Origin: Lytechinus pictus
Taxonomy: Eukaryota
Direction: 5' to 3'
Assembly (NCBI RefSeq): GCF_037042905.1
Contig: NC_087245.1
Location: 33,296,001 to 33,360,000, forward strand
Length of the DNA stretch: 64,000 bases
Positions 3,512-48,514 of the stretch are shown piece after piece. A model generated the notes under the pieces. The model worked only from the letters and a program-made list of their open reading frames with translations. It was not told where the DNA came from and searched no databases. A program made the translations under genes and the position numbers. Position 1 is the stretch's first letter, and the number at the start of each line of letters is the position of its first letter.

Positions 3512-4106
3512 TTAAAGGAGAATGAAACTCTTGGAGCAAGTTAGCTTTTGTGAAAGCAGAAAAATCAAAGAATAAGATCAACAAAAGTTTGAGTAAAATA
3601 GGACTAGCAATAAAAGAGTTATGAGCATTTGAATGTAGAGATCACTAATGCTATGGAGATCCTCCCATTGGCAATGCGACCAAGATATATGATGTCACAG
3701 ATGAACAACTCTCCCCTTTTGGACACTGAAAATATACCCCAAAACATATCTTTTTGCTCATTCTAATCACATGACAAACGATTCATCAATGATATAATGT
3801 TGTGAAACCTCTGTACTTGTCCTCTCATAAAGAGAACACCTCACCTTGTGATAGAATAGATTATAAAAGTGAGAATATAAGTGAAATAAGTACTAAAGTA
3901 ATGAGGGAGTTGTACGTGTGTGACATCACAGATCTTGGTCGCATTGCCAATGGGAGGATCTACATGGCATTAGTGATCTCAATATTCAAATGCTCATAAC
4001 TTTCTTATTATTCATTCAATCTTCCTCAAACTTTCAACAATATGTTTCTTTGATTTTTCTCTTTGATATGGATTCAGTTGGTTTCAAGGGTTTCATTCTC
4101 CTTTAA
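3512..4106. mobile_element. TTAA-flanked MITE family A, copy 1
   Basis: TTAAAGGAGAATGAAAC / GTTTCATTCTCCTTTAA ends with long imperfect palindromic arms. Confidence 0.88.
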
Positions 4107-5819
4107 CCAACTGGCGCAAACAGGGGATAATTGATGAAAATGCCGGATGATTTGATTGAAAAGTGTTGTGAAGTGGAACCTTAAACAGCATGGGGTGTAC
4201 TGGTGGACCTTCAAAGGTTGGACAACAAGTATAAGAAGGAATTGACATTGCACTTTATTTTCTAGGATTTTCAACAGGAATATTTCTGCAAATTAAGATT
4301 GGTTTAAACTCGCTTCATTTGATCGTGTACAGAATAAGAAGGAAATGAGGTTGTTTATGTCAAAGGCACCTTCGTTGCATTTACTTGAGCCTTCTGAGCA
4401 GTTAGTTAATATTAGTGAACATGTATGATATACAAGTATATTGGATGGTTGTTCATGTTGCAGCACAGAAAGCAGAAATGATGTTTTTCAATAATATATG
4501 CTCCTACATTTATTCAAAATCCATGATAGATGCAAGTTTATGAAAGCAATATACCTCCTAACAATGTGATCAAAGGGCATTAAGGATCACACTTGACTCT
4601 GCCAAAGCCCCTTCTCCCTACTCCCTTCCTAACGAAAAGGGTCACCCCAACCCCTCTGCCTTTCACTAACGATCCCATCACTGGGCATAAGGGATTACAC
4701 CAGTGAAAAGACATGACTTCATCTTCCATCTCAGAAATATTCCAACCATTCTGGAGGGTTGGATTGCTTTGAGTGACCGGTAGAATGGCTAACTCCATGG
4801 AATCTCCAACGCTCACCCTTCTAAATAGCTAAGGATCCGAGTGATTTAAGATTCATTCATGGAGCTAGGTTCCTAACTAGGTTACCATTACAAACAACCA
4901 CAGATATATTTATAGACTTCATTCACAATGTTTACATGTCAGGGTAGGAAATAATTTAGATTTTTTTTTAGGGCATTCTTTTTTTAAATGGGGCGACTTG
5001 CCAATATTTGGGGGCTATTTCTTTCATTTTACTGGCTACCTTTTAGGGGTAATAAACAATTATGCAGTAAAAGCATCATTCTGCCATAGTTAGAATACTG
5101 ATTTTCTGAGTAATCTTGAATATTGTTTGTGACAGATCTTAGGGCGACTCTAGAAAGAATGGTCATCCCAAAGCACGCATTTTTTAAAGAATTTTAGGGG
5201 GCATTATGGGCTGTCATGAGGGCCAAATCGCCCAACACCCTCATGTATTTCTTATGCTGCCTCATCCTTCCAGACGTGAATTCATCACCATTTTGACAAA
5301 CATTCCCAAGTTACACAAGGTAAAGTTTAATTTGATTTTAATTTAAACACAAAGGTGTTAATTTACATGTAATAAATATTATTTAAAATTCAAACCTTTA
5401 TATCTCTGATTTAAATCAAATCAAGAGTTTGTACAAGTCACTAGCCACAAAGATAACAAAATCGTAATTTCAATGATTAAAGTGAAAAACAAGGTTAATA
5501 ACAAATCTTTAGCACATGTGAAACCAAACTAGAATCACAAACGCTAATCACAATCACAAATTCAAATTTTACTCCGGAGGTGAATTCCAGTTAAATTACA
5601 GTACGAAGTTTCCGTGTGAAAGGTCCGATGATTCTAAAGATGAACTGCAATCATCATGATTCAAGATTCACGTGTGAAAAGGCCCTAAAATACATTTATT
5701 CATAGTAATTTAGATTGTAGTATTCGTGGCTATTTGTTTATTTGTACAGTTCAATGAAAACCCATACCCTTCAATACTGGAGTATACATTTATATCGATA
5801 AAGCTGTTAAAAAAAAATT

Positions 5820-6358
5820 CAACAAGCATAACACTGAAAATTTCATCAAAATCGGATGTAAAATAAGAAAGCTATGACATTCTTAAGTTTCACTTAATTT
5901 CACGAAACAGTTATATGCACATCCTGGTTGGTATGCAAATGAGGAGCCTGATGACGTCATCCACTCCCTAATTCTTTTGTGTTTTATCATATGAAATATT
6001 CTCTTCATTGTCAAGTAAAACAAGGATTAATTCCTCCCTGAACATGTGGAATTAGCATTGTTTAATACTATATAGTTCAGTCAAGTTGGTCCCTATTGTC
6101 AAATTTGTAAAATATGAAATATTGTATAATTCAAACAATAAAAAACAAAAGAAATAGTGAGTGAGGGACATCATAGACTGTCTCATTTGCATGTCACTGA
6201 GTTGTGCATATCACTGTTTTGTGAAAAAAAGTGAAACTTTAAAATTTCATAACTTTCTTATTTTACATCCTATTTTGATGAAATTTTCAGCATTATGCTA
6301 GTCTGATTTTTCTCTATTTATTCAAATCAACATTTTTCTGTGGTGGACTTGACCTTAA
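5820..6358. mobile_element. MITE family B, missing one terminus
   Basis: Reverse-complement match to 27168-27763; ends GGTGGACTTGACCTTAA. Confidence 0.82.
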
Positions 6359-7450
6359 TTTTTTTTACTCTTTCACCTACACTCTGAAAACAGATTCAGC
6401 TTGATGTTTAAAGGGTTTGACAACTCTTAAATTTTCTGTCTCCTATTCATACTCATATCATCAGTATCCCTGTAGCTATTTCACTTTTAATGAAGATAAA
6501 AGTCATGGAGGAAAATAAGAAAAAAATGACAGCTATGGGGTATGAAAACAAACTTGGTGACTCCTATCCTAAAGGGGACCGAAAGGCTACACTTGAATAA
6601 CAAAGTTGATCTTGAAATAGCCTGACACATGACCTCTTCCTACATTCTCAAGTTTATTTGAAAAATTCTGCAGGCAAATTTCTGCCATTCCCGACCCCCA
6701 AAAGGTCAAGACATCAAAATGTTTGAAGTCCCTCATGCGCTTCTCTAGTCCATCCACTATGAATTTATGCTTCTGTGCTGACCTCCCTAAATTGTTTGAT
6801 ATTCCGTTCTGGTTGTTAACTTCAACAGAAGGTACACAAGTTCTGACATTGTATTTTGTCACTGTGATTTAGTGCAAGCCTTGACATATTGAAATAATGA
6901 TTATTACTGATTTGCAATTGTCGCCAAGAGTACTGCAACCCCAGTTTCACAAATGCAATGCATACTTTGAAATATTCGTACAAACTGAAATAAAAATTGT
7001 TCACGTATACTTATATTTTCATCAGTCGCAGTGGGAATGTGCCCTTGCCCTAAAAATATGGTAAAACTTTAATCAATTAAAAAATACTAGAGCTTGATTT
7101 TCATAGAAGACAATGGGAATAATACTTTCTAATGTTTTTATCTGCCTCATATTGACACTGTTCTTATTTGTCTATTTATCTATTTATAAAACTCTATAAT
7201 GAAAAGTGAAAAAAAATTATCAAGATATAGGCCTAATCCTTCTAATGCCACAGCAAGTTTAACCATCATTGTGAAGCCAGGTTAGGGTTGCACTAGCTGG
7301 ATGACACGCTTGTTTGTTGTTGTTTTTTATAAGTAATGTTTTTGTGGAAATGGGATAAGGAGTCATTTGATCAATCAAAACTTCTGATATTCCAGATAAT
7401 TATTCATATAAAGCTGAAGTAATGGCCCAGTGAATATTATCATCATAATC

Positions 7451-10730: not shown

Positions 10731-10871
10731 GCCCTCCCGTTACATAAAACTTGTTCAAATAACAAATTTATGATAACAGTTAAAAGCTACCATAAACGTT
10801 TAATCTGATTGGCCTGGTAGTAAATTTGTTATAGAGAAATACATAACAAGTATTTATTAAACAGGGCCCTG
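10731..10871. mobile_element. Small MITE, same family as 24948-25085
   Basis: CATAAAACTTGTT..AATAACAAATTT..ATAACAGTTAA..GATTGG..GTAAATTTGTTATAG..AAACAGGGCCCTG. Confidence 0.6.
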
Positions 10872-16616: not shown

Positions 16617-17932
16617 CATTCATCTTTAGAATCTGCTTGAAAGACAGTTAATCAGATGGACAACATCATGCATATTAAATCAGTTCATGAAGTTGGATTT
16701 TCTTTAGCTTAAACTTTACAAAATCATTAATTTGTAAAACGTCTAATAATATATTTTCTTATATAGCCAGTACTCACTTGTCTAGTTAACTTATTCTACA
16801 TATTGTAATTTCCATGAATTATCAGTACTTTATGACATTCTGTGGGCATTGGAGGTGGCTCTAGCAGAGTACATTGTCCTTTGATATATTCATTTTTCCC
16901 TTTCATAATAACAGGAATATTAAAAAAAACATTTTCTGACAAAAAATAAGAAAACATATGTGACATTCTCCTGGCAAGAAGCTGACAGAATCCTTTTCAT
17001 TGATTAATTATATTGATTAAAAAAGTAATTTCCTCTCACTACTCACAACCGTAAAATCAAGAGAAAAAATAGTGACCCTTAGCTCTTCACTGGTCAAATG
17101 GTCAAGCTGATTAATCCCAGTGGGATATCAGACAAGAATTCTAGAGGAAAGTGTGTCTCATCTCATCTCAACATCATTTGACTGACTGTGCCTTTAAGCT
17201 AGAAATACAATTACGAAAAAATACCAAACGTGAAATGATTTGCTTGCAGTTCTGCAGCGTTTCAGTTACAAAATGGAAATAAGGTTCGAATTACAAGGCA
17301 TCACAAGTTTTCATACGAAGATCAACATGAAAATACCTTACCTGAAAAACAGAATTATGAAATAAGTGAATGCTTAATAGATTTTGCTATAGGTCTAACA
17401 GCTCTTGAACAGCAAAAGTGGTTCATTTCACAATTAAGACAAAGCTGAAATAATTTCCTATTTTTTCTGATCCAGTACAAACTTTCAACTTCTCATTCCA
17501 GACATGTCTCTAGTACTATTTCTCTCATCGGTTACTCATCTCTACAAATGATTACTAATTATTCTATCTTTAATATATAGATAAAGTCAGTTCTGTTTAC
17601 CGGAAGTTGCAAGAAACTCTATTCAATTTTACTTCTGTTTCTTTGTTTACTTCCCAGAGAGTTTGATTCAATGATCTCTTTCTTTGCATCACTCCACTTT
17701 CCCACTTTGATTGAATGATTTGACTCTTTTCCAACCGCTTCCAAATTTCTTCTTTTCCTATCCCTTCATCTCCCATCTTCTGTCATGTTATTGTTCCACT
17801 TTTTCAAATCTTCCCTTCCCCCTTTCTGTCCTCGCTTTCCCCCTCCTTTTCTCTCCAATTCCTCCCTACCTCTCTTTCTCTATTGGTGTCCACTTCATGT
17901 ATAAATACCACAATCACTTTGATACCAAACCA

Positions 17933-18162
17933 GGCATGGTGGTTCAGTGGTAGAGTGTCTGTCCCATGAACGGGAGGTCGTGGGTTCGATCCCTGGCTGA
18001 GTCATACCAGACTTAAAAAATGGAACCTTCTACCTTCTCTCTCAGGCGTTCAATGTATGAGAATAGAGAAAGGTAATATTATGCAAAGCCTGCTGGAAGA
18101 ACAGCTTACAGCTGAGAGTGGCTGCCCCGGGTAAATAAGAATTATTATTATTATTACTATTA
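17933..18162 (+). mobile_element. tRNA-derived SINE, apparently full length
   Basis: TGGTTCAGTGGTAGAG A-box, GGTTCGATCCC B-box, non-tRNA body and (ATT)n tail. Confidence 0.82.
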
Positions 18163-20713: not shown

Positions 20714-21115
20714 TTAAAGCTAAATGAACGTAGTTGCAGTAAAACACTGATTTCGTGAGAAAGTCTGTAAAACCAAGGTAAAGTATTGATATATCATCGT
20801 GGATCTAGATCTGGTACAATTACATAAACTGAACTTTGTGAAATCATAATATCTAGCTAAAAAACGATCGTACTGAAGATCGCCAACACAGATAGGCACA
20901 CGTGGGACAGTGTATTATTATTGCTGGAATAAAGACCCGACGAAAGTCACCGAATCCGCGCTTATTTTGCTTATTTCTCAGAAATTACACAATTTCTTCC
21001 AGAATCCTTTGGCACATATTTTTTATTCATACAAACAGACACTTTGGTGATCATTATATTAAATTCTGTAAAAGTTCATTTTGAGATCGTTCCCAAAACT
21101 GGAATTTACCTTTAA
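20714..21115. mobile_element. TTAA-flanked MITE family C, copy 1
   Basis: TTAAAGCTAAAT...ATTTACCTTTAA; collinear with 39882-40278. Confidence 0.82.
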
Positions 21116-24947: not shown

Positions 24948-25085
24948 GGGACCATTTCATAAAACTTGTTATAATAACAAATTTGCAATAACAGTTAAGA
25001 GCTACTGAAATCCTTCAATCTAATTGATAATAAATTTGTTATAGAAATTGTGCATTTGGAAAGAAGTCTTTATGAAACTAGACCC
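24948..25085. mobile_element. Small MITE, intact relative of the split MITE; nested in another MITE at ~24851-25215
   Basis: GGGACCATTTCATAAAACTT...TTTATGAAACTAGACCC termini; outer element GGGGGGTATTTCACAAAG...TTTGTGAAACACTCCCC. Confidence 0.65.
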
Positions 25086-27167: not shown

Positions 27168-27763
27168 TTAAAGGTCAAGTCCACCCCAGGAAAATGCTGA
27201 CTTGAATAAATAGAGAAAAATCAAACTAGCATAGTGCTGAAAATTTCATAAAAATCAGATGTAAAATAAGAAAGTTATGACATATTAAAGTTTCGCTTAT
27301 TTCATATGCACAACTAGGTGAGTCAGTCGATGATGTCCATCACTCACTACATGTATTTCTTTCGTTTTTTATTGTTTGACTTATACAATATTTTTTTTTA
27401 TAGATTTTACAATAAGGACCAACGTGACTGAACCATATAGTATTAAACAATGCTAATTCCACATGTTCAGGGAGGAATTAATCGTTGTATCACTTGACAA
27501 TGAGGAGAAAATTAGAATATTTCATATTTCATATGATAAAATACAAAAGAAATAGTGAGTGGATGGCTTCATACATGTAGTCTCCTCATTTGCATACCAG
27601 CCAGGATGTGCATATAACTGTTTTGTGAAATTAAGCGAAACTTTAAAATGTCATAACTTTCTTATTTTACATCCGATTTTGATGAAATTTTCAGTGTTAT
27701 GCTTGTTGGATTTTTCTCTTTTTATTCAAATCAACTTTTTGTTGGGGTGGACTTGTCCTTTAA
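27168..27763. mobile_element. TTAA-flanked MITE family B, full length
   Basis: TTAAAGGTCAAGTCCACCCC / GGGGTGGACTTGTCCTTTAA TIRs. Confidence 0.88.
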
Positions 27764-31957: not shown

Positions 31958-32340
31958 GGTTTATACAATATTTCAATTTTTACGAATTTGACAATTAGGA
32001 CCTCCTTGCCTGAATCACAAAATGTTAGAATAATGGAATTCCACGTGTTCAGAGAGGAATGAAACTTCATTTCACATGACAATGACGAGAAAATCAAACT
32101 ATTTCATATTTCATATAATAAAATACAAAATAAATAGTGAGTGAGTGATGTCATCAGTTCCCTCATTTGCATACTGACCGAGATGTGCATATAACTGTTT
32201 TGTGAAATGAAGCGAAACTTTAAAATGTCATAACTTTCTTATTTTACATCCGATTTTGATGAATTTTTCAGTGTTATGCTTGCTGAATTTTTTTCCTTTT
32301 ATTCAAATCAAGTTTTTGTTGGGGTGGACTTGTCGTTTAA
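31958..32340. mobile_element. MITE family B, right half only
   Basis: Matches ~27380-27763; ends GGGGTGGACTTGTCGTTTAA. Confidence 0.8.
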
Positions 32341-32731
32341 TAAGATGTGTACCAGTAGAAAGGCTGGGAAGTTGGGGGGGGGGGCATCTTGGAGCATCTT
32401 GACCCTCACCAGATTATCATCCTCAGGTGCCAGGCAAATAAATGTCTATTTTTTCGAAGTTCTGGGACCCGTTTGACAAAACTTGTTATCGTCCAGGATA
32501 GGTAGGCCCCATAGAAAATTGACTGAACCTTGTTGTTTCATATAAACAATATTTTTCAATGGTTTCTTGTCGATTCGAGGGTGCTGATTATGAATCTGAA
32601 TGATGCCACTCATGTAAACTTCAGCATTTTCCACAAATTGGCAAAATCAAATATGGCCACCAAAATTACCAATGAAAATCATAAAATTGCGCATTGGCTA
32701 TAAATTGTGTTGCATGAGTTAAATACTCTCT

Positions 32732-33759
32732 AAACAAGTGGAATGCCTCTGGAGGTCTCACCTGCATCACGCGATTCAATATAGCAGCAGTGCTGACTTT
32801 GAAAACTACTATAACTCGCACAAGATGTTCAGTGATACTTGGTTACTCTTATGTCCACGTTTTATGAACTAGACCAATACACTTACAGAGATATGATGCT
32901 AATTCAACAAATACCACCAACGTGGCCAAAGTTCAGTGACCTTACATGACCTTTGACCTTGATCATGTGACCTGAAACTCGCACAGGATGTTCAGTGATA
33001 CTCGATTACTCTTATGTCCCAGTTTCATGAATAAGATCCATAAACTTTCAAAAAGTTATGATGGTAATTCAACAGATACCCCCATTATGACCAAAGTTCA
33101 TTGACCTTTGACCTTGGTCATGTGACCTGAAATGCGCACAGGATGTTCAGTGATACTTGATTACTCTTATGTCCAAGTTTAATGAACTAGACCAATATAC
33201 TTTCAAAGTTATAATTGTAATTCAACAAATACCCCCAATTCGGCCAAAGTTCATTGACCCTAAATGACCTTTGACCTTAATCATGTGACCTGAAACTTGC
33301 ACAGGATGTTCAGTGATACTTGATTACTATTATGTCCCAGTTTCATGAATCAGATCCATAAACTTTAAAAGTTATGATGGTAATTCAACAGACTTGATTA
33401 ACCTTATGTCCAAGTTTCATGAACTAGGTCCATATATTTTCTAAGTTATGATGACATTTCAAAAACTTAACCTTAGGTTAAGATTTTGATGTTTTTTTTA
33501 TGTTGATTCCCCCAACATGGTCTAAGTTCATTGACCCTAAATGACCTTTGACCTTGGTCATGTGACATGAAACTCATGCAGGATGTTTAGTGATACTTGA
33601 TTAACCTTATGGCCAAGTTTCATGAACTAGGTCCATATACTTTCTAAGTTATGCTGTCATTTCAAAAACTTAACCTTCGGTTAAGATTTGGTGTTGACAC
33701 TGCCGCCGTCGGAAAAGCGGCGCCTATGGTCTCACACTGCTATGCAGGTGAGACAAAAA
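32732..33759 (-). mobile_element. HINE/DINE-1/pearl-like Helentron-associated element, copy 1
   Basis: Subterminal inverted repeats GTCTCACCTGCAT (32755-67) / ATGCAGGTGAGAC (33742-54), a short IR hairpin at 33729-33754, a GCC microrepeat, internal ~150-bp tandem units containing TGACCTTTGACCTT, A/T-run ends and no TSD. Confidence 0.8.
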
Positions 33760-33832
33760 CTTAACTTTGGTTGGTTGATAAGATTTCATTGTTGATGCCG
33801 CCGCCATTGAAAAAGCGGCTATTCCTGCATGC
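33760..33832 (-). mobile_element. Short terminal fragment of the same HINE family
   Basis: Repeats AACTTAAC..TTGATGCCGCCGCC..GAAAAAGCGG, matching the end of HINE copy 1. Confidence 0.6.
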
Positions 33833-33928
33833 ATATAACAATATTAATGATAATAATGATAATAAAAATAATAATACCAGTAATATGTCTCACTACACTA
33901 CCATCTTTAGAGGCAATTTTCTAACTTT

Positions 33929-34000
33929 GTAATAATAATAATAATACATAGAATTTGTATAGCGCACTTTCCTTCCTAATTAGATGCTCGAGGCACTTAA
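33929..34000 (-). mobile_element. 3' tail of an L2-type LINE or SINE
   Basis: Minus strand reads GCGCTATACAAAT..(TAT)n, a typical L2-related tail. Confidence 0.45.
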
Positions 34001-34471
34001 TAGGAATTACAAAAGGGAGAAATCAAGTAGATGACAAGCTTGCACTAATAAACAATAGCCTTTTCATCAGATTGTAGATTTTTGTATGTTTTCTCTCTCA
34101 CAAGAAGTTTGTGAGCTCCACAATTACGCACTCTCTCTCCACTTGCTTTTACTACTCTGATCCAATTGCTTCTATATTACTGTTTGGACTCATCAAGTTG
34201 ATATAACATTTGTATCATTGATTCAAAGACATTAATGCAAATGCCTCTTGCCTTCATTTCAATGTACTCACCTAGACTATCTGTAATGCATGAAGCGCAA
34301 ATGAGAATGCATGTCTGCATGTAATTCTGTTAGGCTCCTGATGTTTTTTACAACAACATTCTACATTCCAAAGGGAAGTCAATTTAAAAGTCATTCAACA
34401 AAGGTGGTAGAAGCCATTGTCAGCATTGATCTGTTATCATCACATTCGGATACTAATAACTTCTTGAAACA

Positions 34472-37400
34472 ATGAAGATGCTTAACTTCATATATCTTTT
34501 GTTCTTGTTACCTACAAGTCAATCAAGATGCCTAAATCTCTGTGAATGTGAGCGGAAAGCTTTCACCATCAATATAGCATGCAGGGAGCGTGATCTGCAT
34601 GACATTCCACAGGACCTCCCATGCAATATTGGTTTGCTTGACTTAAGTAGAAACTTCATTACTACCCTAAAGAAAGAGTCATTCTCATGCCAAAATGAGT
34701 TGGCAGCACTTCTCCTGTCTAACAACCATCTCCGCATCATAGAGCAGAAAGTCTTTGATGATGCAGAACATCTGGTATACATAGACCTAAGCTCAAACTT
34801 TCTTGAGAGTTTACCATACCTTGGTTCTTTACCTTTCATTCAAAAAATATCTATCATCCGGAATTCTTTGACGGATTGGAATCATCAGACACTCAGCAAC
34901 ATATCAGGACCACACCTTTCATTACTTCACCTTGCATTCAACAAACTAAAGAATCTACCGGAATTTCCAGTTAAAATATCTGCTCTAGAGCTAAAGGGAA
35001 ATGCAATCACTGACCTGTCAAAAAAAATGTTTATATATCCAAAAACTGTATCATCTCTGGACATTTCCTACAACGATGTTGAGTACCTGTACAGACTGCA
35101 AACAATGGAGAACCTTAAGACACTCTCTATTGCATTCAACCAAATAAGAGAAATTACAACCACTGTATTCACTCACCTACCTTCGATTGAAACAATCAAC
35201 CTTCAAGGAAACAGCATCGTGGATGTCTCTGCCATCCATGATATTCCACATATCAAGTCTATCATATTAGACCACAATCAAATAAGATCTATAAATAGAC
35301 CAGCATTCACTAATATTCCAGATATAGAAACAATTAATTTGCAGCATAATAAAATCATTGAAATCAAAGGTGATTATTATTTCAACATACCAACTAGTCT
35401 TATCCTCTCCTACAACAACATGATTGCAATGAACATATTCCAAGGTAGATATCACTCTAACTTAAAGATTCTCAATGTTGATGATAATAATCTGCAAGTA
35501 CTTTCCCTCATTTATTTTCCTGATTTAACTTCTATATTTGCCTGTTGCAATAAAATTACAATTTTGGAATTTGGTATTTATGATTATCAACATTTAGTAT
35601 ACATCAATTTATCTTGGAACAAAATTACAAACATTACAAACTTTCAACACTTGACAAACGTACAAAGCTTGCACCTATCGCACAATTTCTTAACAAAATG
35701 GAGTGATCAAAATTTGTTAGGCTCATCTCAGCTCATTCTCCTCAGAGTTAACGACAACAGATTGTCATTGCTTTCAAATTTCACAGCCTTGCCACGACTT
35801 GAAGATCTAGATTTGTCTGGCAATGTACTTCACACTATAGAACATTCATCCTTTGAATTCCTACAAAGACTTGCCACTTTAAATCTTGCCAAAAATAAGA
35901 TTTCTCACCTTGGTTTCCTGAGGCCCATTACCTCACTCCAAACGCTGAACCTTAATTACAACAGACTTGTGGCAATCGACCCTAAAGATCTCTCAAATCT
36001 TATAAATCTAAGAACTTTACACATAGCATTTAATTTGTTAGTAGAGGTTCCTACATTTACCAAAAGCTTGAACTCCCTTCGAAACCTTGACATCAGTCAT
36101 AACCTATTACCTCATTTGAATCTTAGCCATGCCTTTAATCAAAGCATACCCATTAATATCAATGCAGCGGACAATAGAATTACCCAAGTTATTTCAACTT
36201 CAACCTTGTATCTAAATATTAATAACAATACAATTGGAGCTTCAAATTCAAGTTTACTTTCAGCAAGCAATATCTTTGCATGCAACAATAAATTGACAGA
36301 TTTCAAACATGTTAGATTTTCAAGCACTTTGAAGGGACTTTATCTAAACAAAAATCAAATAGCTACCATACCAAATTTTACATTTGTTTTTGCATCTTCA
36401 CTCCTCTTTCTAGAATTGGATGATAACCAGATAGTTGATATATCTCATTTAGCTTTCATTGGTCTTCAGTTTGTTGTCAGGATAAAGCTAGAACGAAATC
36501 GTCTGTCACACCTACATTCTGGGGTGTTTTCAAATATTCAGGAGCTACAATACCTTTATTTAAAAGGAAATCCTTTCACATTCATTTCAAGTGAACTATT
36601 TTCAGGAATACCTTGTATATTGGGTATATATTTTTCAAATATCCCAGCCTCAAACATGTCCATACAAGCATTGCAAGATATTAAAACTGTTATATTTTTG
36701 GATCTTCATGAAAATTTGGCATTTCAAGCATTGATTTTTACAAACTCAAGTATACAACAAGATGTTGCTTTGGAATTTTCAAATCTGCTTTTATTAAATC
36801 TCTCTTCAAACAATCTTGGAAATTCTTGTCCATCGTTATCAATAAACACTCTGAATGCGCTTGATTATTCTAACAACACAATTACTTCAATCCCTAGACA
36901 CTGTCTACCAAGAAAGAGTAGGCCATACAATCTCTTCTTGTCACACAATCAAATACAAAACATCTCCAAAGATTCATTTGATAAACATCAGCAATTCTGG
37001 TTGTTGGATTTAAGGTATAACAATATTGTGTTCTTTGAACTAGGTTCCTTACAACATCAGACACACTTGATATATTTATATCTTCAAGACAACCAACTCA
37101 CGAAAATTCACCTTGCTATCTCAACATTCTCTTTGAAGCCAATATTTATCTACTTACAAAATAACCATTTGTCATGTGATTGCCAACTTTTTAAAACTAT
37201 TCGAGCACTCCGACAAATACCCAAACCAACAGTTTGTCAAAAACCTTCTTTGTACATCAACTCCTCTATTGCTGAGCTGACTGGCACTGATACATGTCGC
37301 CCACAACTGTGCTCTCCACCATATCAAACTATGCTTTCGTTTGTCGGTGATCAAATGATTGAGTTACCTTGTCCTATTAAGACATCAAACAACATTTACT

Positions 37401-37762
37401 GGTCAGTCTCATTAAAAGGGCAGCAACTCTTAACCTCTTTCTTACCAGATGGAGTGGACATTCTTCCTCACAATTCTCTTATCATTACTCATGTCAGGAA
37501 AAACATGACTGGACTTTATAGCTGTTGGACTGAGAATGAAGGTGATCAAACAAAGTTTACAGTAGAATTACTTGTAGAGGATGAGATAGGAAACATGAGG
37601 AAAGAGACTCATAACCATTCAGTAATGTTAGCCAGAAAGTGGAAGGACACACTTGTATGTGGTAACAAATCTTTTGCTTCAAGTCAATGTAATATCGTCA
37701 GTAAATCATATAACTCATTGTTTGTATTTATGCTAGGTATCCATTCACTTATCACAAAGTAG
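34472..37762 (+). CDS. Intronless leucine-rich-repeat + immunoglobulin domain (LIG-type) secreted or GPI-anchored protein, 1096 aa
   Basis: 3.3-kb uninterrupted ORF. Hydrophobic signal peptide (MKMLNFIYLLFLLPTSQS), LRRNT (CLNLCEC...C), roughly 30 LxxLxLxxNxI/L repeats, LRRCT (NNHLSCDCQL...VCQKP...C), Ig domain (LPCP..IYW...SLIITHV....GLYSCW) and a short hydrophobic C-terminus (SLFVFMLGIHSLITK). No TIR or other cytoplasmic domain. Confidence 0.93.
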   Translation: MKMLNFIYLLFLLPTSQSRCLNLCECERKAFTINIACRERDLHDIPQDLPCNIGLLDLSRNFITTLKKESFSCQNELAALLLSNNHLRIIEQKVFDDAEHLVYIDLSSNFLESLPYLGSLPFIQKISIIRNSLTDWNHQTLSNISGPHLSLLHLAFNKLKNLPEFPVKISALELKGNAITDLSKKMFIYPKTVSSLDISYNDVEYLYRLQTMENLKTLSIAFNQIREITTTVFTHLPSIETINLQGNSIVDVSAIHDIPHIKSIILDHNQIRSINRPAFTNIPDIETINLQHNKIIEIKGDYYFNIPTSLILSYNNMIAMNIFQGRYHSNLKILNVDDNNLQVLSLIYFPDLTSIFACCNKITILEFGIYDYQHLVYINLSWNKITNITNFQHLTNVQSLHLSHNFLTKWSDQNLLGSSQLILLRVNDNRLSLLSNFTALPRLEDLDLSGNVLHTIEHSSFEFLQRLATLNLAKNKISHLGFLRPITSLQTLNLNYNRLVAIDPKDLSNLINLRTLHIAFNLLVEVPTFTKSLNSLRNLDISHNLLPHLNLSHAFNQSIPININAADNRITQVISTSTLYLNINNNTIGASNSSLLSASNIFACNNKLTDFKHVRFSSTLKGLYLNKNQIATIPNFTFVFASSLLFLELDDNQIVDISHLAFIGLQFVVRIKLERNRLSHLHSGVFSNIQELQYLYLKGNPFTFISSELFSGIPCILGIYFSNIPASNMSIQALQDIKTVIFLDLHENLAFQALIFTNSSIQQDVALEFSNLLLLNLSSNNLGNSCPSLSINTLNALDYSNNTITSIPRHCLPRKSRPYNLFLSHNQIQNISKDSFDKHQQFWLLDLRYNNIVFFELGSLQHQTHLIYLYLQDNQLTKIHLAISTFSLKPIFIYLQNNHLSCDCQLFKTIRALRQIPKPTVCQKPSLYINSSIAELTGTDTCRPQLCSPPYQTMLSFVGDQMIELPCPIKTSNNIYWSVSLKGQQLLTSFLPDGVDILPHNSLIITHVRKNMTGLYSCWTENEGDQTKFTVELLVEDEIGNMRKETHNHSVMLARKWKDTLVCGNKSFASSQCNIVSKSYNSLFVFMLGIHSLITK

Positions 37763-38312
37763 TAATAAGCCAAGAACACTCTAATACAAATGCAAATACA
37801 TTTTTTATATACTATGGAGAGATTTTTTAAATTTAATTTTCATGTAGGCCTACTAGATTTAGATTTTGTTCATTTTCATTAACAAAATACTGTGTAGCAA
37901 GTGTGCTGAAGTGTCAGTATGTTTACACAATTGATGCAAAATAGCATATTCTTTTGTTTTTAAAGGACAAAATGTAAACACCACTGCTGTTTCATAGATG
38001 TGTGCTATATAGAAGTATTTCGTACATGTAGACTATATTTGCATATCTTTGCTCAATTTGAAATGTTCGTACTTCATTCTTGATATTGTGAATCAGTGGA
38101 TGTGTACTTTCATACTCCCGAGTCATGTCATATACTGTATATAATTTGAGATATACATTCAATACTCATCAACTTAATAATCAATTGCAATCTTTCGTTA
38201 CGGGGCTAGAAGTTTCGTGTAAGAGAGATTGCAAAATAATCATTGCGATGTGTGTGAACCTATTGTTAACGATGTTGTAAGCTCTGTCAAGTGTTTACCA
38301 CCATACACCATT

Positions 38313-38392
38313 CATGATGGCTCAGTGGTAGAGCGCCCACCTCGTGAATGATAGGTGGTTTGATTCTTGGCCGAGTCGTACCAAAGACTTAT
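38313..38392 (+). mobile_element. Truncated tRNA-derived SINE head
   Basis: TGGCTCAGTGGTAGAGCG A-box, a degenerate B-box, then CCGAGTCGTACCAAAGACTT as in the SINE at 17933; ends at HINE copy 2. Confidence 0.65.
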
Positions 38393-39219
38393 AACAAGTG
38401 GAGCGCCTCTGGCAGTCTCGCCTGCATTACGCGATTCAATATAGCAGCAGTGCTGACTTTGCAAATGACTATGAAATAATTATTCACAAAAAATACCATT
38501 CATATAATATGTTACGACATTAATTGACCCTAAATGACATTTGACCTTGATCAAGTGACCTACTACTGGTACGAGATGAGCAACGATTACCCTAATGTCT
38601 ACATTTCATTTACTATATTCATAATTTTTTAAAAGTTATGATGGTAATTCAACAATGACCTCCAACATGGCAAAAGTTCATCAACCTTAAATTTGACCTG
38701 AAATTTGCACAGGATGTTCAGTGATAATTGATTAATCTTATTTCCAAGTTTTATTAACTAGCTTCATAAACATTAAAAGTCATGACGAAATTCAACAAAT
38801 ATCCCCAACATGCCCAAAGTGTTTTGACCCAAAATGACCTTTGACCTTGGTCATGTGACCTGAAACTTGAGCAGAATGTTAAGTAATATTTTATTACTTT
38901 TATCTGTAAATTTTATGAACTAGATCCATATATTTTTGAAGTAATGATGACATTTCAAAAAACTTATCCTTGGGTTAAGATTTCAATATTGATTCCCCCA
39001 ACATGGTCTAAATTCATTGACCCTAAATGACCTGTGACCTTGGTCATGTGACCAGAAACTCAGGCATGGTGTTCAGTAAACGTGATTACCCAAGTTTCAT
39101 GACCTAGGTCCATATACTTTTTAAGTTATGATGATTTTTATTTCAGTGTTGAATACGCCGCCGCTGTCGCCATCAGAAAAGCAGCGCCTATAGTCTCGCT
39201 CTGCTATGCAGGCAAGAAA
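38393..39219 (-). mobile_element. HINE/DINE-like element, copy 2 (same family and orientation as copy 1)
   Basis: Same AACAAGTGGA.GCCTCTGG..GTCTC.CCTGCAT start, same tandem units and same CTATGCAGG...AAAAA end as 32732-33759. Confidence 0.8.
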
Positions 39220-39881
39220 AATTTATTTCTGTCAAAATATTGATTTTCTTGATATTCAAAAATGATTTCTAGCTAAATACATCTTATATTGGTCATGGTG
39301 GTAAGAAATGCTGTACTTTGACATTCAAAATTGTTGCCATAGGCCCTAAAAGTATGATATACATTGTAACTGGGAACATATAATTTTGACAGAATTTGGC
39401 TTTGCAAGAAAATAAATATTGCATTGTGATAGAAGAGTTAAATATTGTCTAAAACCATGGTTTCTAATGAGATATATCATATATTGTGTAATTATTTAAG
39501 GTGGTAAATGCTGCATTTTTTAATTGAAAATGGTCGCCATAGGCCCTTATCATGTTATGTACAATTGAATGATGACAGATAATTATCACAAAAGGGCATA
39601 GGCAGCTAATTTGAATTTTGAAATATAGCCATTATCCCCTGAATCACATAAGAAATATGATATATTTTGTTAGAAAATAATGTTTTCAGACAATATTTAG
39701 TCAAGCAAAGCCAAAATCTGTTAAAATCATTTGTCCCCTTCACACTATATATACTACCATTAGGGCCTGTAGCAGCTATTTTTACTTTCAAAATACAGTA
39801 TTTATCACCTATCAGGCATATGAAATTATATATATTGTTAGAAACTATACTTTCAAACAATATTTTAATCATATATCACAA

Positions 39882-40278
39882 TTAAAGAGAAATTCCAGTA
39901 GTTGCAGTAAACACTGATTTCATGAGAAAGTCTGTAAACAAGGCTTAACTGATATCATTGAGGATCTAGATCTGGTACAGTTACATAAACTGAACTTCGT
40001 GAAATCTTGAAATCTACCCTGAAAAATGTTCAGACTGAAGACCCCCAACACAGATAAGCGCACGTGGGACAGTGTATAATTATTGCTTTGAATGTCGGGC
40101 CCGACGCTCTACCCGAATCCTGTGCTTATTTGCTGATTTCTCAGCAATTACACAATTTCTTCCAGAATCCTTTGGCACATACGTTTTATTTATACAAACA
40201 GACACTTTGGTGGTCATTTCATTGGATTCTGTACGAACTCATTTTGATATCGTTACCAAAACTAGCATTTACCATTAA
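39882..40278. mobile_element. TTAA-flanked MITE family C, copy 2 (nested in the Academ-like element)
   Basis: Direct match to 20714-21115 (GTAGTTGCAGTAAA.CACTGATTTC...GGATCTAGATCTGGTACA). Confidence 0.82.
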
Positions 40279-41365
40279 GTGCATTTATGGTGCTCACACC
40301 TGTGAAAATTGGTTTCCCAGTTCGCATTTTACATAATACAGTCAATGTCTATGGCAGCCATTTTGAAAGTCAAAATACAGTATTTGACACACACTTGAAA
40401 CCTGAATGATATATTTCGTTAAAATTATGATTTTAGACAGCATCCTATTTATTTATCCCAAATACATGCATTTTAGTGCTCACTCTTGTGATTTATTTGG
40501 TCCTCTTTGTAATTGTACATAATAATGTTAGGGTCTTTGGCAGCCCTTTTGAATATCAAAATACATTTTGTGAACAATTGTTTTTAGTCAGTATTCCTCT
40601 TGTTTATCTCAATTATATGTATCTTAGTGCTCACTCTTGTGAACGTTGTTGGCCCCCATTTCCATTGTACATAATACTGTATGGACCAGAGGCAGCTATT
40701 TTGAATATTGAATACAGCAATTTTCCCATACATGACATAATGATGATTTTCATACATTACTACATTCATAGATCACAATTACTTGCAGTTTAGAGATCAT
40801 TTATGTGAAATTATTTTTCCCTATTCATATATTGTACATAAAAGGGTATACAGGGGTCTATGGCGGCCATTTTGAATATCAGGAAATTAATATTTTTTTT
40901 AAAATCACTTTTCCAGAGAGATTATATTACTCCTGCCACACAATTGCATGCATTTTATAGCCAATGTGCGGGCAATTTTATGATTTTCATGGGTAATTTG
41001 CATATTTTGGCGGCCATATTGGATTTTGCCAATTTGCAGAAAATGCTCAAGGTTATTCGAGTAGCATCATTCAGATTCGTAATTAGCACCCTCGTATTGA
41101 CAAGAAACCATAAAAAAATTGTATTTCTGAAAAAACAAGGTTATACCTCTTCTATCCTGGACTTTTACAATAAAAACAAATTGCAATAACAGTTTAAAGT
41201 TATTGAAACCATTCAATTTGATTGGCTAATAGTAAATTTGTAATAAAAACAATTCATTTGTTACTAGAACAAGTGTTTTAGAAACAGGACCTAGAATTTG
41301 CTGGACTTCTCCCATTTTTGTACAAAAATAATCACAGAACATCATACCACATAGATCTAAAATAT

Positions 41366-42327: not shown

Positions 42328-43642
42328 CCAGGGGCCCGTCTTACAAAGAGTTGCGTTGGATCCCAATCGCAACTATGGAAAGCCAGCAAAGTCAACATAT
42401 GAAATGCATGTTTGTTAAAAAAACTTTCTAGATATGAATGTATATCCATAAAGTCATTGATTTCTTGACAATTTGGTGTGTTTTCCTTTGTTTACAAAGG
42501 ACATTTTGCCAATTTCCTGTAGAAAAAATCATGACACTGTTGGATTTCCATAGAATTACAATTGATTGGATAAATTAAGGAGGTACAAAAGTATTTGCAA
42601 GATGATTTTGATTCAATAAGTAAATGGCTAGACTTAAATAATATGCATTTACACCCGCAAAAAACAAAAGCCATGGTATTTGGTCAAAAGAAAAAGTTGA
42701 GGGGTGCTCATTTGTCAGTGAAATTCAGGAACATACAATTAGAAAATGTAAAAAAGATTAAATACTTAGGTGTCATGCTCGATCCGGGCTTTACTTGGTG
42801 CGAACATATTACTAATATCGTTTGTAAAATATCTCGGGCAATAGGTTGTGTAAGGCGGATTAAGCACTTACTGTCCTTTGATATTATGAAGAAGCTGTAC
42901 TTTTCTATGATTTTACCTTACATTGATTACTGTATTACATCTTGGGGAAGCAGTGCAAAAATACATTTAGATAAGATACAAAAACTTCAAAATAAATATG
43001 CCAGAATGCTTTTGAAAAAAGATTATAATACATCACAAATTTCTTTGTTGCAGTCACTGAAGTGGCAATCAGTAGATCAGCGTATAAAATATCAGTATTG
43101 TGTTCTTGTATATAAAATAATGAATGATTTAGTTCCAAATTATTTAAAACCTTTAGTATGTAAACGGCCCGTGAAATACAGGACACGGTATTCTTTACGA
43201 TGCCCCCTTCAGCTTCCCAAAGCTAGAATTGAACATAAAAGAAAATCTTTCGCATATGTCGGACCCAAATTATTTAATGCACTTCCTTCAAATTTACAAG
43301 TTTGTACCTCCTTGTTAGTTTTTAAAAAATTATGCAAAGCCTTTCATACGATTTGATAAAGAGCGAAATGATATTCCATTGATTTACAATGCTATGTATG
43401 TTTAAATTGTCACTTCCCACTCTATATTTTGGTGTTAATTGTTTCTGATGTTAGATATTTTGTATTTTGTATTTTTGATGTTGTTTGTTGTCGTTGTTCA
43501 TAGTTATCTTGACATGTATTTTAAACTGCAGGGCGCCTTTGTAAAGCAGTTTTAAGAACTGAACAGGCCTACCCTGCAGTATAAAATAAATAAAACAAAA
43601 TAAATAAATAAATAAATCGTAACTCTTTGTAAGGGGCCCTGG
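42328..43642. mobile_element. Harbinger-like MITE interrupted by the LINE
   Basis: TIRs CCAGGGGCCCGTCTTACAAAGAGTTGCG / CGTAACTCTTTGTAAGGGGCCCTGG. Confidence 0.75.
42576..43617 (+). mobile_element. 5'-truncated CR1/L2-group LINE: ORF2 C-terminus, 3'UTR and (TAAA)n tail
   Basis: ORF 42595-43356 carries post-RT motifs (LQDD..ISKW..N.MHL..KTKAM, KYLGVMLD..W..HI, LY.SMILP.IDYC...W). Terminal CAGGG...CCCTG hairpin and (TAAA)n tail; ATAAAT at both junctions. Confidence 0.9.
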
Positions 43643-47918: not shown

Positions 47919-48514
47919 TTAAAGGAGAATGAAACCCTTGAAACCAGCTGAATCAATATCAAAGAGAAAAATCAAAGAAACATATTGTTGAAAGTTTGAG
48001 GAAGATTGAATGAATAATAAGAAAGTTATGAGCATTTGAATATTGAGATCACTAGTGCCATATAGATCCTCCCATCGGCAATGCGACCAAGATCTGTGAT
48101 GTCACACACGTACAACTCCCTCATTACTTTAGTACTTATTTCACTTATATTCTCACTTTTATAGAATCTATCACAAGGTGAGGTGTTCTCTTTATGAGAT
48201 AACAAGTACAGAGGTTTCACAACACTATATCATTGATGAATCATTTGTCATATAGTATGATTAGAATGAGCAAAACGAGATGTTTTGGGGTATATTTTCA
48301 GTGTCCAAATGGGAGAGTTGTACGTGTGTGACATCACAGATCTTTGTCGCATTGCCAATGGGATGATCTCCATAGCATTAGTGATCACGACATTCAAATG
48401 CTCATAACTCTTTTATTGCTAGTCCTATTTTACTCAAACTTTTGTTGATCTTATTCTTTGATTTTTCTGCTTTCACAAAAGCTAACTTGCTCCAAGAGTT
48501 TCATTCTCCTTTAA
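47919..48514. mobile_element. TTAA-flanked MITE family A, copy 2 (inverted relative to copy 1)
   Basis: Near-identical reverse complement of 3512-4106. Confidence 0.88.

What the first reader, a model, noticed from the sequence alone, without database searches (positions are those of the whole stretch)
32462..41294. Three-level nest: MITE split by an 8.7-kb Academ-like element that now contains the gene
Seen: long TIRs at 32489 and 41164 with TTA duplicated on both sides. The outer flanks join into one small MITE matching intact copies at 24948-25085 and 10731-10871. This fixes the order MITE, then long-TIR element, then HINE cassette. It independently shows the gene arrived after these repeats. 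Inference: the gene now lies within a second element with both ends present, like a Pack-type element, although the degenerate termini and interrupted TIR make re-mobilisation doubtful.
Basis: partly seen in the sequence, partly recalled or inferred. Interest (0 to 1): 0.8.

Follow-up and report, generated by a model that had tools for sequence, protein, structure and literature searches.

The report
Gene cassette inside nested sea-urchin transposons
An intact sea-urchin gene for a large leucine-rich-repeat protein sits inside one arm of an old cut-and-paste transposon, which itself splits a smaller one, and it likely arrived as a 6.5-kb package bounded by two rolling-circle elements, a known way of copying genes that is unusually clearly recorded here.

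Summary
The nest is real. An 8,676-bp long-TIR element (32489-41164, TTA on both sides) splits a MITE whose halves rejoin into a copy 76-78% identical to two intact ones. A 6.5-kb cassette (HINE-like copy, intact 1,096-aa LRR-Ig gene, second HINE-like copy) interrupts the element's left arm, which resumes right after it (0 of 4,298 random controls score as well). Both HINE copies abut repeats cut in half whose other halves are missing, so the cassette came from another locus; composite rolling-circle transposition fits best (about 55%), repeat-mediated recombination next. The MITE/TIR junction is present in 4 of 4 runs, three from a related organism, so the outer element is old and most likely dead. 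Two corrections: the nest does not by itself show that the cassette entered after the element landed, and nothing shows Pack-type movement of the gene. 'Academ' rests on the 3-bp duplication, family TAG tips and unequal 12/23 ends; no transposase link was obtained. The scan noted this same cassette (e1-8148841) and similar Academ-type ends elsewhere in this genome (e1-7787493). A clean new example of known processes.

The parts
32462..32488 (+). Left stub of the split MITE, ending in the first TTA (32486-32488)
32489..32732 (+). Outer left arm of the long-TIR (Academ-like) element; 'long' end: tip decamer, 27-nt spacer here (23 nt without a 4-nt duplication), then AACCTTG
32733..33757 (-). HINE-A: non-coding Helentron-type element with 12-bp subTIRs, 5' hairpin, 163-bp central repeats; its 3' end is the left boundary of the cassette
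   Evidence: structure as in PMC4067079
33758..33820 (-). Stub of an older HINE-like copy cut by HINE-A; its other half is not on the outer side of HINE-A
   Evidence: 48/60 to HINE-A tail; 0 of 2,676 controls; outer side at noise level, 1,230 of 2,641
34472..37762 (+). Intact single ORF, 1,096 aa: hydrophobic N-terminus, about 28 LRR motifs, LRRCT-like and weak Ig-like match, no clear membrane helix
38307..38392 (+). 5' part of a SINE-like repeat cut by HINE-B; its 3' part is absent beyond either HINE
   Evidence: 72% to 17929-18018; 0 of 2,684 controls; 3' part at noise level, 1,952 of 2,631 and 957 of 2,613
38393..39220 (-). HINE-B: second, more decayed copy of the same family in the same orientation; its 5' end is the right boundary of the cassette
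   Evidence: 673/815 to HINE-A
39221..39580 (+). Inner left arm of the long-TIR element (continuation of 32489-32732)
39590..41164 (-). Right arm of the long-TIR element, about 150-bp units in inverted orientation; 'short' end with a 12-nt spacer
39882..40278 (.). Fourth nested element in the right arm, TTAA on both sides (Kolobok-like); joining its flanks restores an arm unit
   Evidence: 334/392 to 20714-21115; 113/154 join; TTAA rule from PMC9587614 passage
41165..41294 (+). Second TTA (41165-41167) and right part of the split MITE

Best explanation
A gene-less long-TIR DNA transposon, likely of the AcademX type, sits in a small MITE with a TTA duplication, and its left arm is interrupted by a 6.5-kb cassette from another locus that likely arrived by composite rolling-circle transposition of two HINE copies flanking an LRR-Ig gene. 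Steps: (1, shown) MITE present at the site; (2, shown) the roughly 1.8-2.2-kb long-TIR element inserted into it, and this junction is shared with a related organism; (3, shown) the cassette lies in an A-run of the left arm, with no duplication and with both boundaries at the outer HINE termini; (4, shown) repeats cut by each HINE have lost their outer halves, so both HINEs first inserted elsewhere; (5, inferred) a Helentron transposase started at the 5' end of HINE-B, ran past its 3' end and through the gene, and stopped at the 3' end of HINE-A; (6, inferred) this happened after the long-TIR element had landed, and the outer element is now a passive, dead container; (7, inferred) the gene has been kept by selection.
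For: Nest. One long (23) and one short (12) end, and family tip TAGTCCAGGA from loose-end consensus in 2 of 4 runs' listed rows (7 and 28 contigs). Right arm carries the family-majority letter at 10 of 12 scored sites where the left arm differs (one two-allele site left out). MITE/arm junction bridged in 4 of 4 runs: 3 differences in 245 letters in organism A, 9-25 differences (4-7%) in three samples of organism B (records 1, 9, 10, 17, 25). Cassette ends coincide with HINE ends and the target is a T-run on the HINE strand without duplication, the Helentron rule in PMC4067079; family flanks at this terminus are A-rich and variable. Cut SINE and cut older HINE on the inner sides. HINE-A has the same subTIR variant (A) in head, hairpin and tail and HINE-B the other (G) in all three, which fits two whole donor copies better than crossover hybrids. 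Composite transposition is documented for a bat Helitron (HelibatN539, PMC4224331) and proposed for HINE-linked gene duplicates (PMC4067079). Reading frame intact here and in a 90%-identical L. variegatus protein while nearby non-coding contigs of organism B show many gap letters.
Against: No donor locus and no empty copy of the long-TIR family was seen (no genome held; the loose end behind 32732 was not among the listed rows, 329 rows hidden). The two HINEs differ by one base in their subTIRs and by 17% overall, so the enzyme had to pair ends of two variants; HINE-B, the proposed start, is the more decayed copy. The subTIR variants are CpG-type changes and could partly be independent decay. 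HINE-A's 3' stem-loop is disrupted in this copy. The arm/HINE junction is crossed only by one organism-A contig with 17 letters on the HINE side, below the tool's 31-letter bar, and by no listed organism-B contig, so the date of the cassette is open. PMC4067079 found few captures in HINEs. No dN/dS was computed.
Confidence: 0.55

Rival explanations
1. Same nest, but the cassette came by homology: one HINE first inserted in the arm, and ectopic recombination (gap repair from the donor, or single crossover with an excised DNA circle) between it and HINEs flanking the donor gene left two hybrid HINEs around the gene.
For: Explains direct orientation, boundaries at HINE ends and the cut inner repeats equally well. 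HINEs are very abundant substrates. Yang et al. 2008 favour non-allelic recombination at DNAREP1 copies for dispersed duplicates (PMC2211543).
Against: Predicts A head and B tail from one copy; they carry different subTIR variants while each copy is self-consistent. The single-HINE circle version predicts the SINE's 3' part beside HINE-A; it is not there. No switch point is obvious in the A/B alignment.
Confidence: 0.25
2. Pack-like second jump: the cassette entered the long-TIR element at another locus, and the whole 8.7-kb unit then transposed into the MITE, so the gene was moved twice by two enzyme classes.
For: Nesting logic does not exclude it; both tips and 244 bp of the left arm lie outside the cassette. 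Earlier notes describe 8-11-kb cargo-laden Academ-type elements in this genome (e1-9246136, e1-9213975; unchecked).
Against: No second copy seen; spacers flanking the gene have no match elsewhere in the window or in the scan's index; in organism B the bin behind the gene has depth like unique flank (the tool warns depth is no copy number). The cassette separates the left tip from its inner arm units.
Confidence: 0.15
3. The two arms are unrelated insertions around a resident gene, or the arrangement is an assembly artefact.
For: Tips are degenerate, a 3-bp match is cheap in AT-rich DNA, arms are only 85% identical, and no listed contig spans the whole unit.
Against: MITE halves rejoin across 8.7 kb; left arm resumes in register after the cassette; one long and one short end; outer junction in 4 of 4 runs.
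Confidence: 0.03

Closest known systems
HINE / DINE-1 / DNAREP1 (non-autonomous Helentrons) at the breakpoints of duplicated genes in Drosophila (PMC4067079: passages and section 17; PMC2211543: passages)
   Same: SubTIRs, terminal hairpins, central tandem repeats, T-rich target without duplication; dispersed intact gene copy with such elements at its breakpoints; same two candidate mechanisms.
   Different: Here both breakpoints are whole elements in one orientation, the cargo is a complete 3.3-kb ORF with spacers, and the empty site can be rebuilt from the second arm of the transposon that was hit.
Composite Helitron HelibatN539 of bats (PMC4224331: passages)
   Same: 5' end of one copy and 3' end of another enclose host DNA.
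   Different: Canonical Helitron carrying part of a gene, with the parental locus found; here Helentron-type ends, a whole ORF, donor not found.
AcademX lineage of the Academ superfamily (3-4-bp TSD from a passage of PMC10045372; Kojima 2020 not held; TAG tips and long TIRs recalled)
   Same: 3-bp duplication, long internally repetitive arms, family tip starting TAG.
Pack-MULE / Pack-TIR elements (recalled; listing only)
   Same: Host gene sequence lies between the two ends of a non-autonomous TIR element.
   Different: Cargo sits inside one arm and is bounded by rolling-circle-type ends; no sign that the TIR element captured or moved it.

Membership tests
AcademX (non-autonomous) | 3- or 4-bp target site duplication | tested here: met
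   TTA twice here, once in the intact MITE; rule from PMC10045372 passage
AcademX (non-autonomous) | Termini 5'-TAG...CTA-3' (recalled, not read in a paper) | tested here: inconclusive
   Family consensus TAGTCCAGGA; this copy reads TCG and CTT
AcademX (non-autonomous) | Long terminal inverted repeats | tested here: met
   204/241 outer arms; inner units inverted, scores 36-73 against 17-24 in direct orientation
AcademX (non-autonomous) | Academ transposase, or terminal 11-bp match to a Repbase Academ family | not testable with these tools
   No transposase ORF in the element; no genome; motif scans gave 8 chance matches in metagenome contigs and 0 in viral contigs
PIF/Harbinger (rival for the long-TIR element) | 3-bp TWA duplication with GG-rich tips (recalled) | tested here: inconclusive
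   TTA fits; family tip TAG does not; target preference of other copies not read out
HINE (non-autonomous Helentron) | 12-15-bp subterminal inverted repeats | tested here: met
   12-bp subTIR at head and tail of A; head and one-mismatch tail of B
HINE (non-autonomous Helentron) | 5' inverted repeat/palindrome and 3' stem-loop | tested here: inconclusive
   5' hairpins fold (-9.4 and -5.8 kcal/mol, no shuffle control); 3' stem-loop weak in B and disrupted in A
HINE (non-autonomous Helentron) | T-rich target, no target site duplication | tested here: met
   A-run on + strand at both outer junctions, arm rejoins without duplication; A-rich variable flanks of other copies
HINE (non-autonomous Helentron) | Ends shared with an autonomous Rep/helicase/endonuclease Helentron | not testable with these tools
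   No genome held
Pack-type TIR element | Host sequence captured between the TIRs and moved with them (further cargo-bearing copies, or donor without TIRs) | tested here: inconclusive
   Cargo is inside one arm with HINE ends; no second copy in the window; genome-wide search not possible
MITE | Short, non-coding, inverted ends, multiple copies | tested here: met
   About 150 bp rejoined, self-inverted, two further copies in 64 kb; superfamily not determined

The most novel reading that the evidence does not exclude
Composite HINE transposition is the routine dispersal route of this expanding sea-urchin LRR-Ig family (members lie on at least three L. pictus and four L. variegatus chromosome-size contigs), moving whole working genes, and this copy may then have been carried a second time by an Academ-type element: a two-enzyme relay for spreading putative recognition genes.
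Probability: 0.15. Interest if true: 0.65.

Novelty: new member of a known kind. Interest (0 to 1): 0.38.

Why it matters
Claims that rolling-circle elements copy whole genes usually lack a clean empty site. Here the second arm of the transposon that was hit serves as a built-in record of the pre-insertion sequence, and cut repeats inside the cassette show that it came from elsewhere. This makes the long-open choice between rolling-circle transposition and ectopic recombination for HINE/DINE-1-linked gene duplicates testable at one locus once the donor is found. The outer MITE/Academ-like nest is itself ordinary and gives mainly a lower layer for dating.

Tried and rejected
Whole-genome search for empty and filled family members: not possible, no genome held. 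Motif scans for relatives of the long-TIR ends: 8 of 8 metagenome matches had no further likeness to the arms and look like chance; 0 in viral contigs. Scan-index look-ups by sequence for the right arm, the protein and the 3' spacer found nothing. One search was swamped by HINE contigs (5,870 joints and 15,409 loose ends hidden), so no joint skipping the cassette could be looked for properly. One organism-B joint (32657 to 32703, shorter side 29) would fit a family copy stopping at the cassette junction, but the tool does not say which side is the shorter; not used. LTR-type or retrocopy origin of the cassette: rejected because the bounding repeats have subTIRs and central tandem repeats, there is no duplication, no AATAAA/ATTAAA or A8 run in 37763-38306, and relatives share upstream DNA. 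Single-HINE circle integration: SINE 3' part absent beside HINE-A. First cluster look-up missed because the query began one codon after the start; corrected. Kojima 2020 (AcademH) is not held. No supplements were opened.
Full report
Setting. The window is AT-rich animal DNA. The only long ORF (34472-37762, 1,096 aa) is on record in NCBI/UniRef on a 44.3-Mb contig, the same length as the contig of two proteins labelled Lytechinus pictus, and its closest named relative is a L. variegatus protein (986/1,096 identical). The window is therefore inferred to be L. pictus. No whole genome is held, so family-wide tests rest on the window, protein searches and contigs of four public runs.

Outer layer. 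TTA stands at 32486-32488 and 41165-41167. Joining the flanks with one TTA gives a piece of about 150 bp that aligns to 24948-25085 (116/149) and 10731-10871 (105/139), as well as these two align to each other (101/128). The short left stub is not chance: 0 of 19,579 and 1 of 19,586 random 27-mers score as well. So TTA is a true duplication of MITE sequence.

Middle layer. The outer arms are 204/241 identical. Contigs of the four runs pile up on the arm at depths of thousands to hundreds of thousands against 6-62 on the unique flank, and loose ends before 32503 end in TAGTCCAGGA with variable DNA beyond (7 contigs in X1, 28 in X2). The family tip is thus TAG; this copy has TCG on the left, CTT on the right and a 4-nt duplication in the left tip. 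Discounting it, the spacer from the tip decamer to AACCTTG is 23 nt left and 12 nt right. An earlier, unchecked note (e1-7787493) reports one long and one short end in Academ-type elements of this genome; the pattern holds for this element and argues that the arms are two ends of one element. The left arm differs from the run majority at 13 listed sites in 164 bp; at 10 of the 12 scored sites (one two-allele site left out) the right arm has the majority letter. AcademX makes 3-4-bp duplications (PMC10045372, passage); TAG tips are recalled, the defining paper is not held, and no transposase link was obtained. Academ-like is likely, not shown.

Age of the middle layer. Contigs bridge the MITE/arm junction with more than 31 letters on both sides in 4 of 4 runs: X1 (organism A, 3 differences in 245) and X2, X6, X7 (three samples of organism B, 9-25 differences, 4-7%). 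No difference row appears at the mutated second base of the left tip and no gap row at the duplication, a weak sign that the tip was already damaged in the common ancestor. The landing therefore predates the split of the two organisms, and present mobility is unlikely.

Inner layer. The left arm stops at 32732 and resumes at about 39221, in register with the right arm (34/43; 0 of 4,298 random 60-mers, 0 of 5,000 shuffles; three control positions at noise level). Further in, roughly 150-bp arm units match the right-arm units inverted (scores 36-73 against 17-24 direct). The empty element would be 2,188 bp, or about 1.8 kb without a TTAA-flanked element at 39882-40278. Between the break points lie HINE-A (32733-33757), spacers, the gene, and HINE-B (38393-39220), both HINEs on the minus strand by the convention of PMC4067079 (passages): 12-bp subTIRs, a 5' hairpin, central 163-bp repeats, T-run target, no duplication. 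The 3' stem-loop is weak in B and disrupted in A.

The cassette came from elsewhere. On its inner side HINE-B cuts a SINE-like repeat after 86 bp, and HINE-A abuts a 63-bp stub of an older HINE-like copy (0 of 2,684 and 0 of 2,676 controls). The missing halves are not on the outer sides, where arm sequence lies instead (noise-level scores). The SINE's 3' extent was judged from one other copy in the window (17922 onward). Both HINEs therefore first inserted at a donor locus, and the moved unit ends exactly at their outer termini.

Mechanism. Composite rolling-circle transposition (start at B's 5' end, bypass of B's 3' end, stop at A's 3' end) predicts two whole donor copies; recombination predicts hybrids in which A's head and B's tail come from one copy. 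A carries the A-variant of the subTIR word in head, hairpin and tail, B the G-variant in all three, which favours whole copies, but these are CpG-type changes, so the evidence is moderate. Precedents: composite HelibatN539 (PMC4224331, passages), end bypass and circular intermediates (PMC5148889, passages), HINE-linked gene duplicates with either mechanism proposed (PMC4067079 section 17; PMC2211543 passages). I put 0.55 on composite transposition after landing, 0.25 on recombination, 0.15 on a second jump inside the long-TIR element.

What the nest does not fix. It shows MITE before landing and long-TIR copy before cassette. It does not show cassette after landing. The arm/HINE junction is crossed by one organism-A contig with no difference but only 17 letters on the HINE side, and by no listed organism-B contig. 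Organism B holds both spacers (contigs over 33886-34205; cover over 37878-38311), but whether at this site or at a donor cannot be told.

The gene. LRR_8 E 3.6e-64, 28 LRR-like motifs, no 19-residue window above 1.51 hydropathy, weak matches of the C-terminal part to Ig and LRRCT-Ig chains (best E 5.6e-4). It forms a 100/100 clade with four L. variegatus proteins, one full-length and three short or broken (15 rows). Family members lie on contigs of 44.3, 57.5 and 82.4 Mb (L. pictus) and 24.5, 31.2, 84.6 and 96.7 Mb (L. variegatus), so the family disperses. An unchecked note places a same-length relative about 9.5 Mb away (e1-8148288). An open frame in both species beside indel-rich spacers suggests selection; function and expression are untested.

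Verdict. Observation confirmed, interpretation partly supported. Nested transposons are ordinary and HINE-linked gene duplication is known; the value here is a whole gene with a reconstructable empty site and internal proof of a foreign origin. New member of a known kind, interest 0.38. Papers were seen as passages or single sections as stated; PMC4455052 and PMC9587614 as passages; no supplements were opened, and Repbase/Dfam entries could not be consulted.

Noticed in passing
window 33965-37810: Run X1 (organism A) gives four contigs overlapping by 30 letters that differ from the window by 1 of about 390, 18 of 494, 109 of 1,536 (39 gap letters) and 15 of 1,471 letters: the N-terminal LRR part is about 7% diverged and the C-terminal part 1%, like a gene-conversion mosaic or a deeply diverged allele; the last contig then runs on for 617 unlike letters after 37810.
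   Followed up: no
window 39882-40278 and 20714-21115: High-copy element of about 390 bp with TTAA on both sides (Kolobok-like), nested in the right arm: a fourth layer.
   Followed up: partly
window 32650, 39327, 39527 (+); 39770, 40352, 40538, 40690, 40861, 41008 (-): Arm units carry a recurrent AAAATGGCCGCCA-like word (YY1-like; label from e1-9379504 and recall) whose orientation flips at the element's centre.
   Followed up: partly
window 32489-32532 and 41115-41164: One long and one short end, spacers 23 and 12 nt once a 4-nt duplication is discounted, as in the unequal-end pattern of e1-7787493.
   Followed up: partly
proteins P0003, P0125, P0126: Three close L. variegatus relatives are annotated as short or broken proteins (796, 513, 266 aa); P0003 turns into unrelated, LINE-like sequence (my recall) after about residue 650: birth-and-death turnover in this clade.
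   Followed up: partly
window 32005-32340: Another high-copy repeat (copies at 5811-6359 and 27168-27763) lies just left of the nest; an organism-B contig that fits 32346-32690 continues leftwards with unlike sequence (record 25), so it may be absent there.
   Followed up: no
window 42574-43356: 260-codon open frame that resembles the end of a LINE reverse transcriptase by eye (recall); no Pfam match at E 0.001.
   Followed up: no
window 3512-4106 and 47919-48514: Two near-identical (95-98%) inverted copies of a 600-bp repeat 44 kb apart.
   Followed up: no
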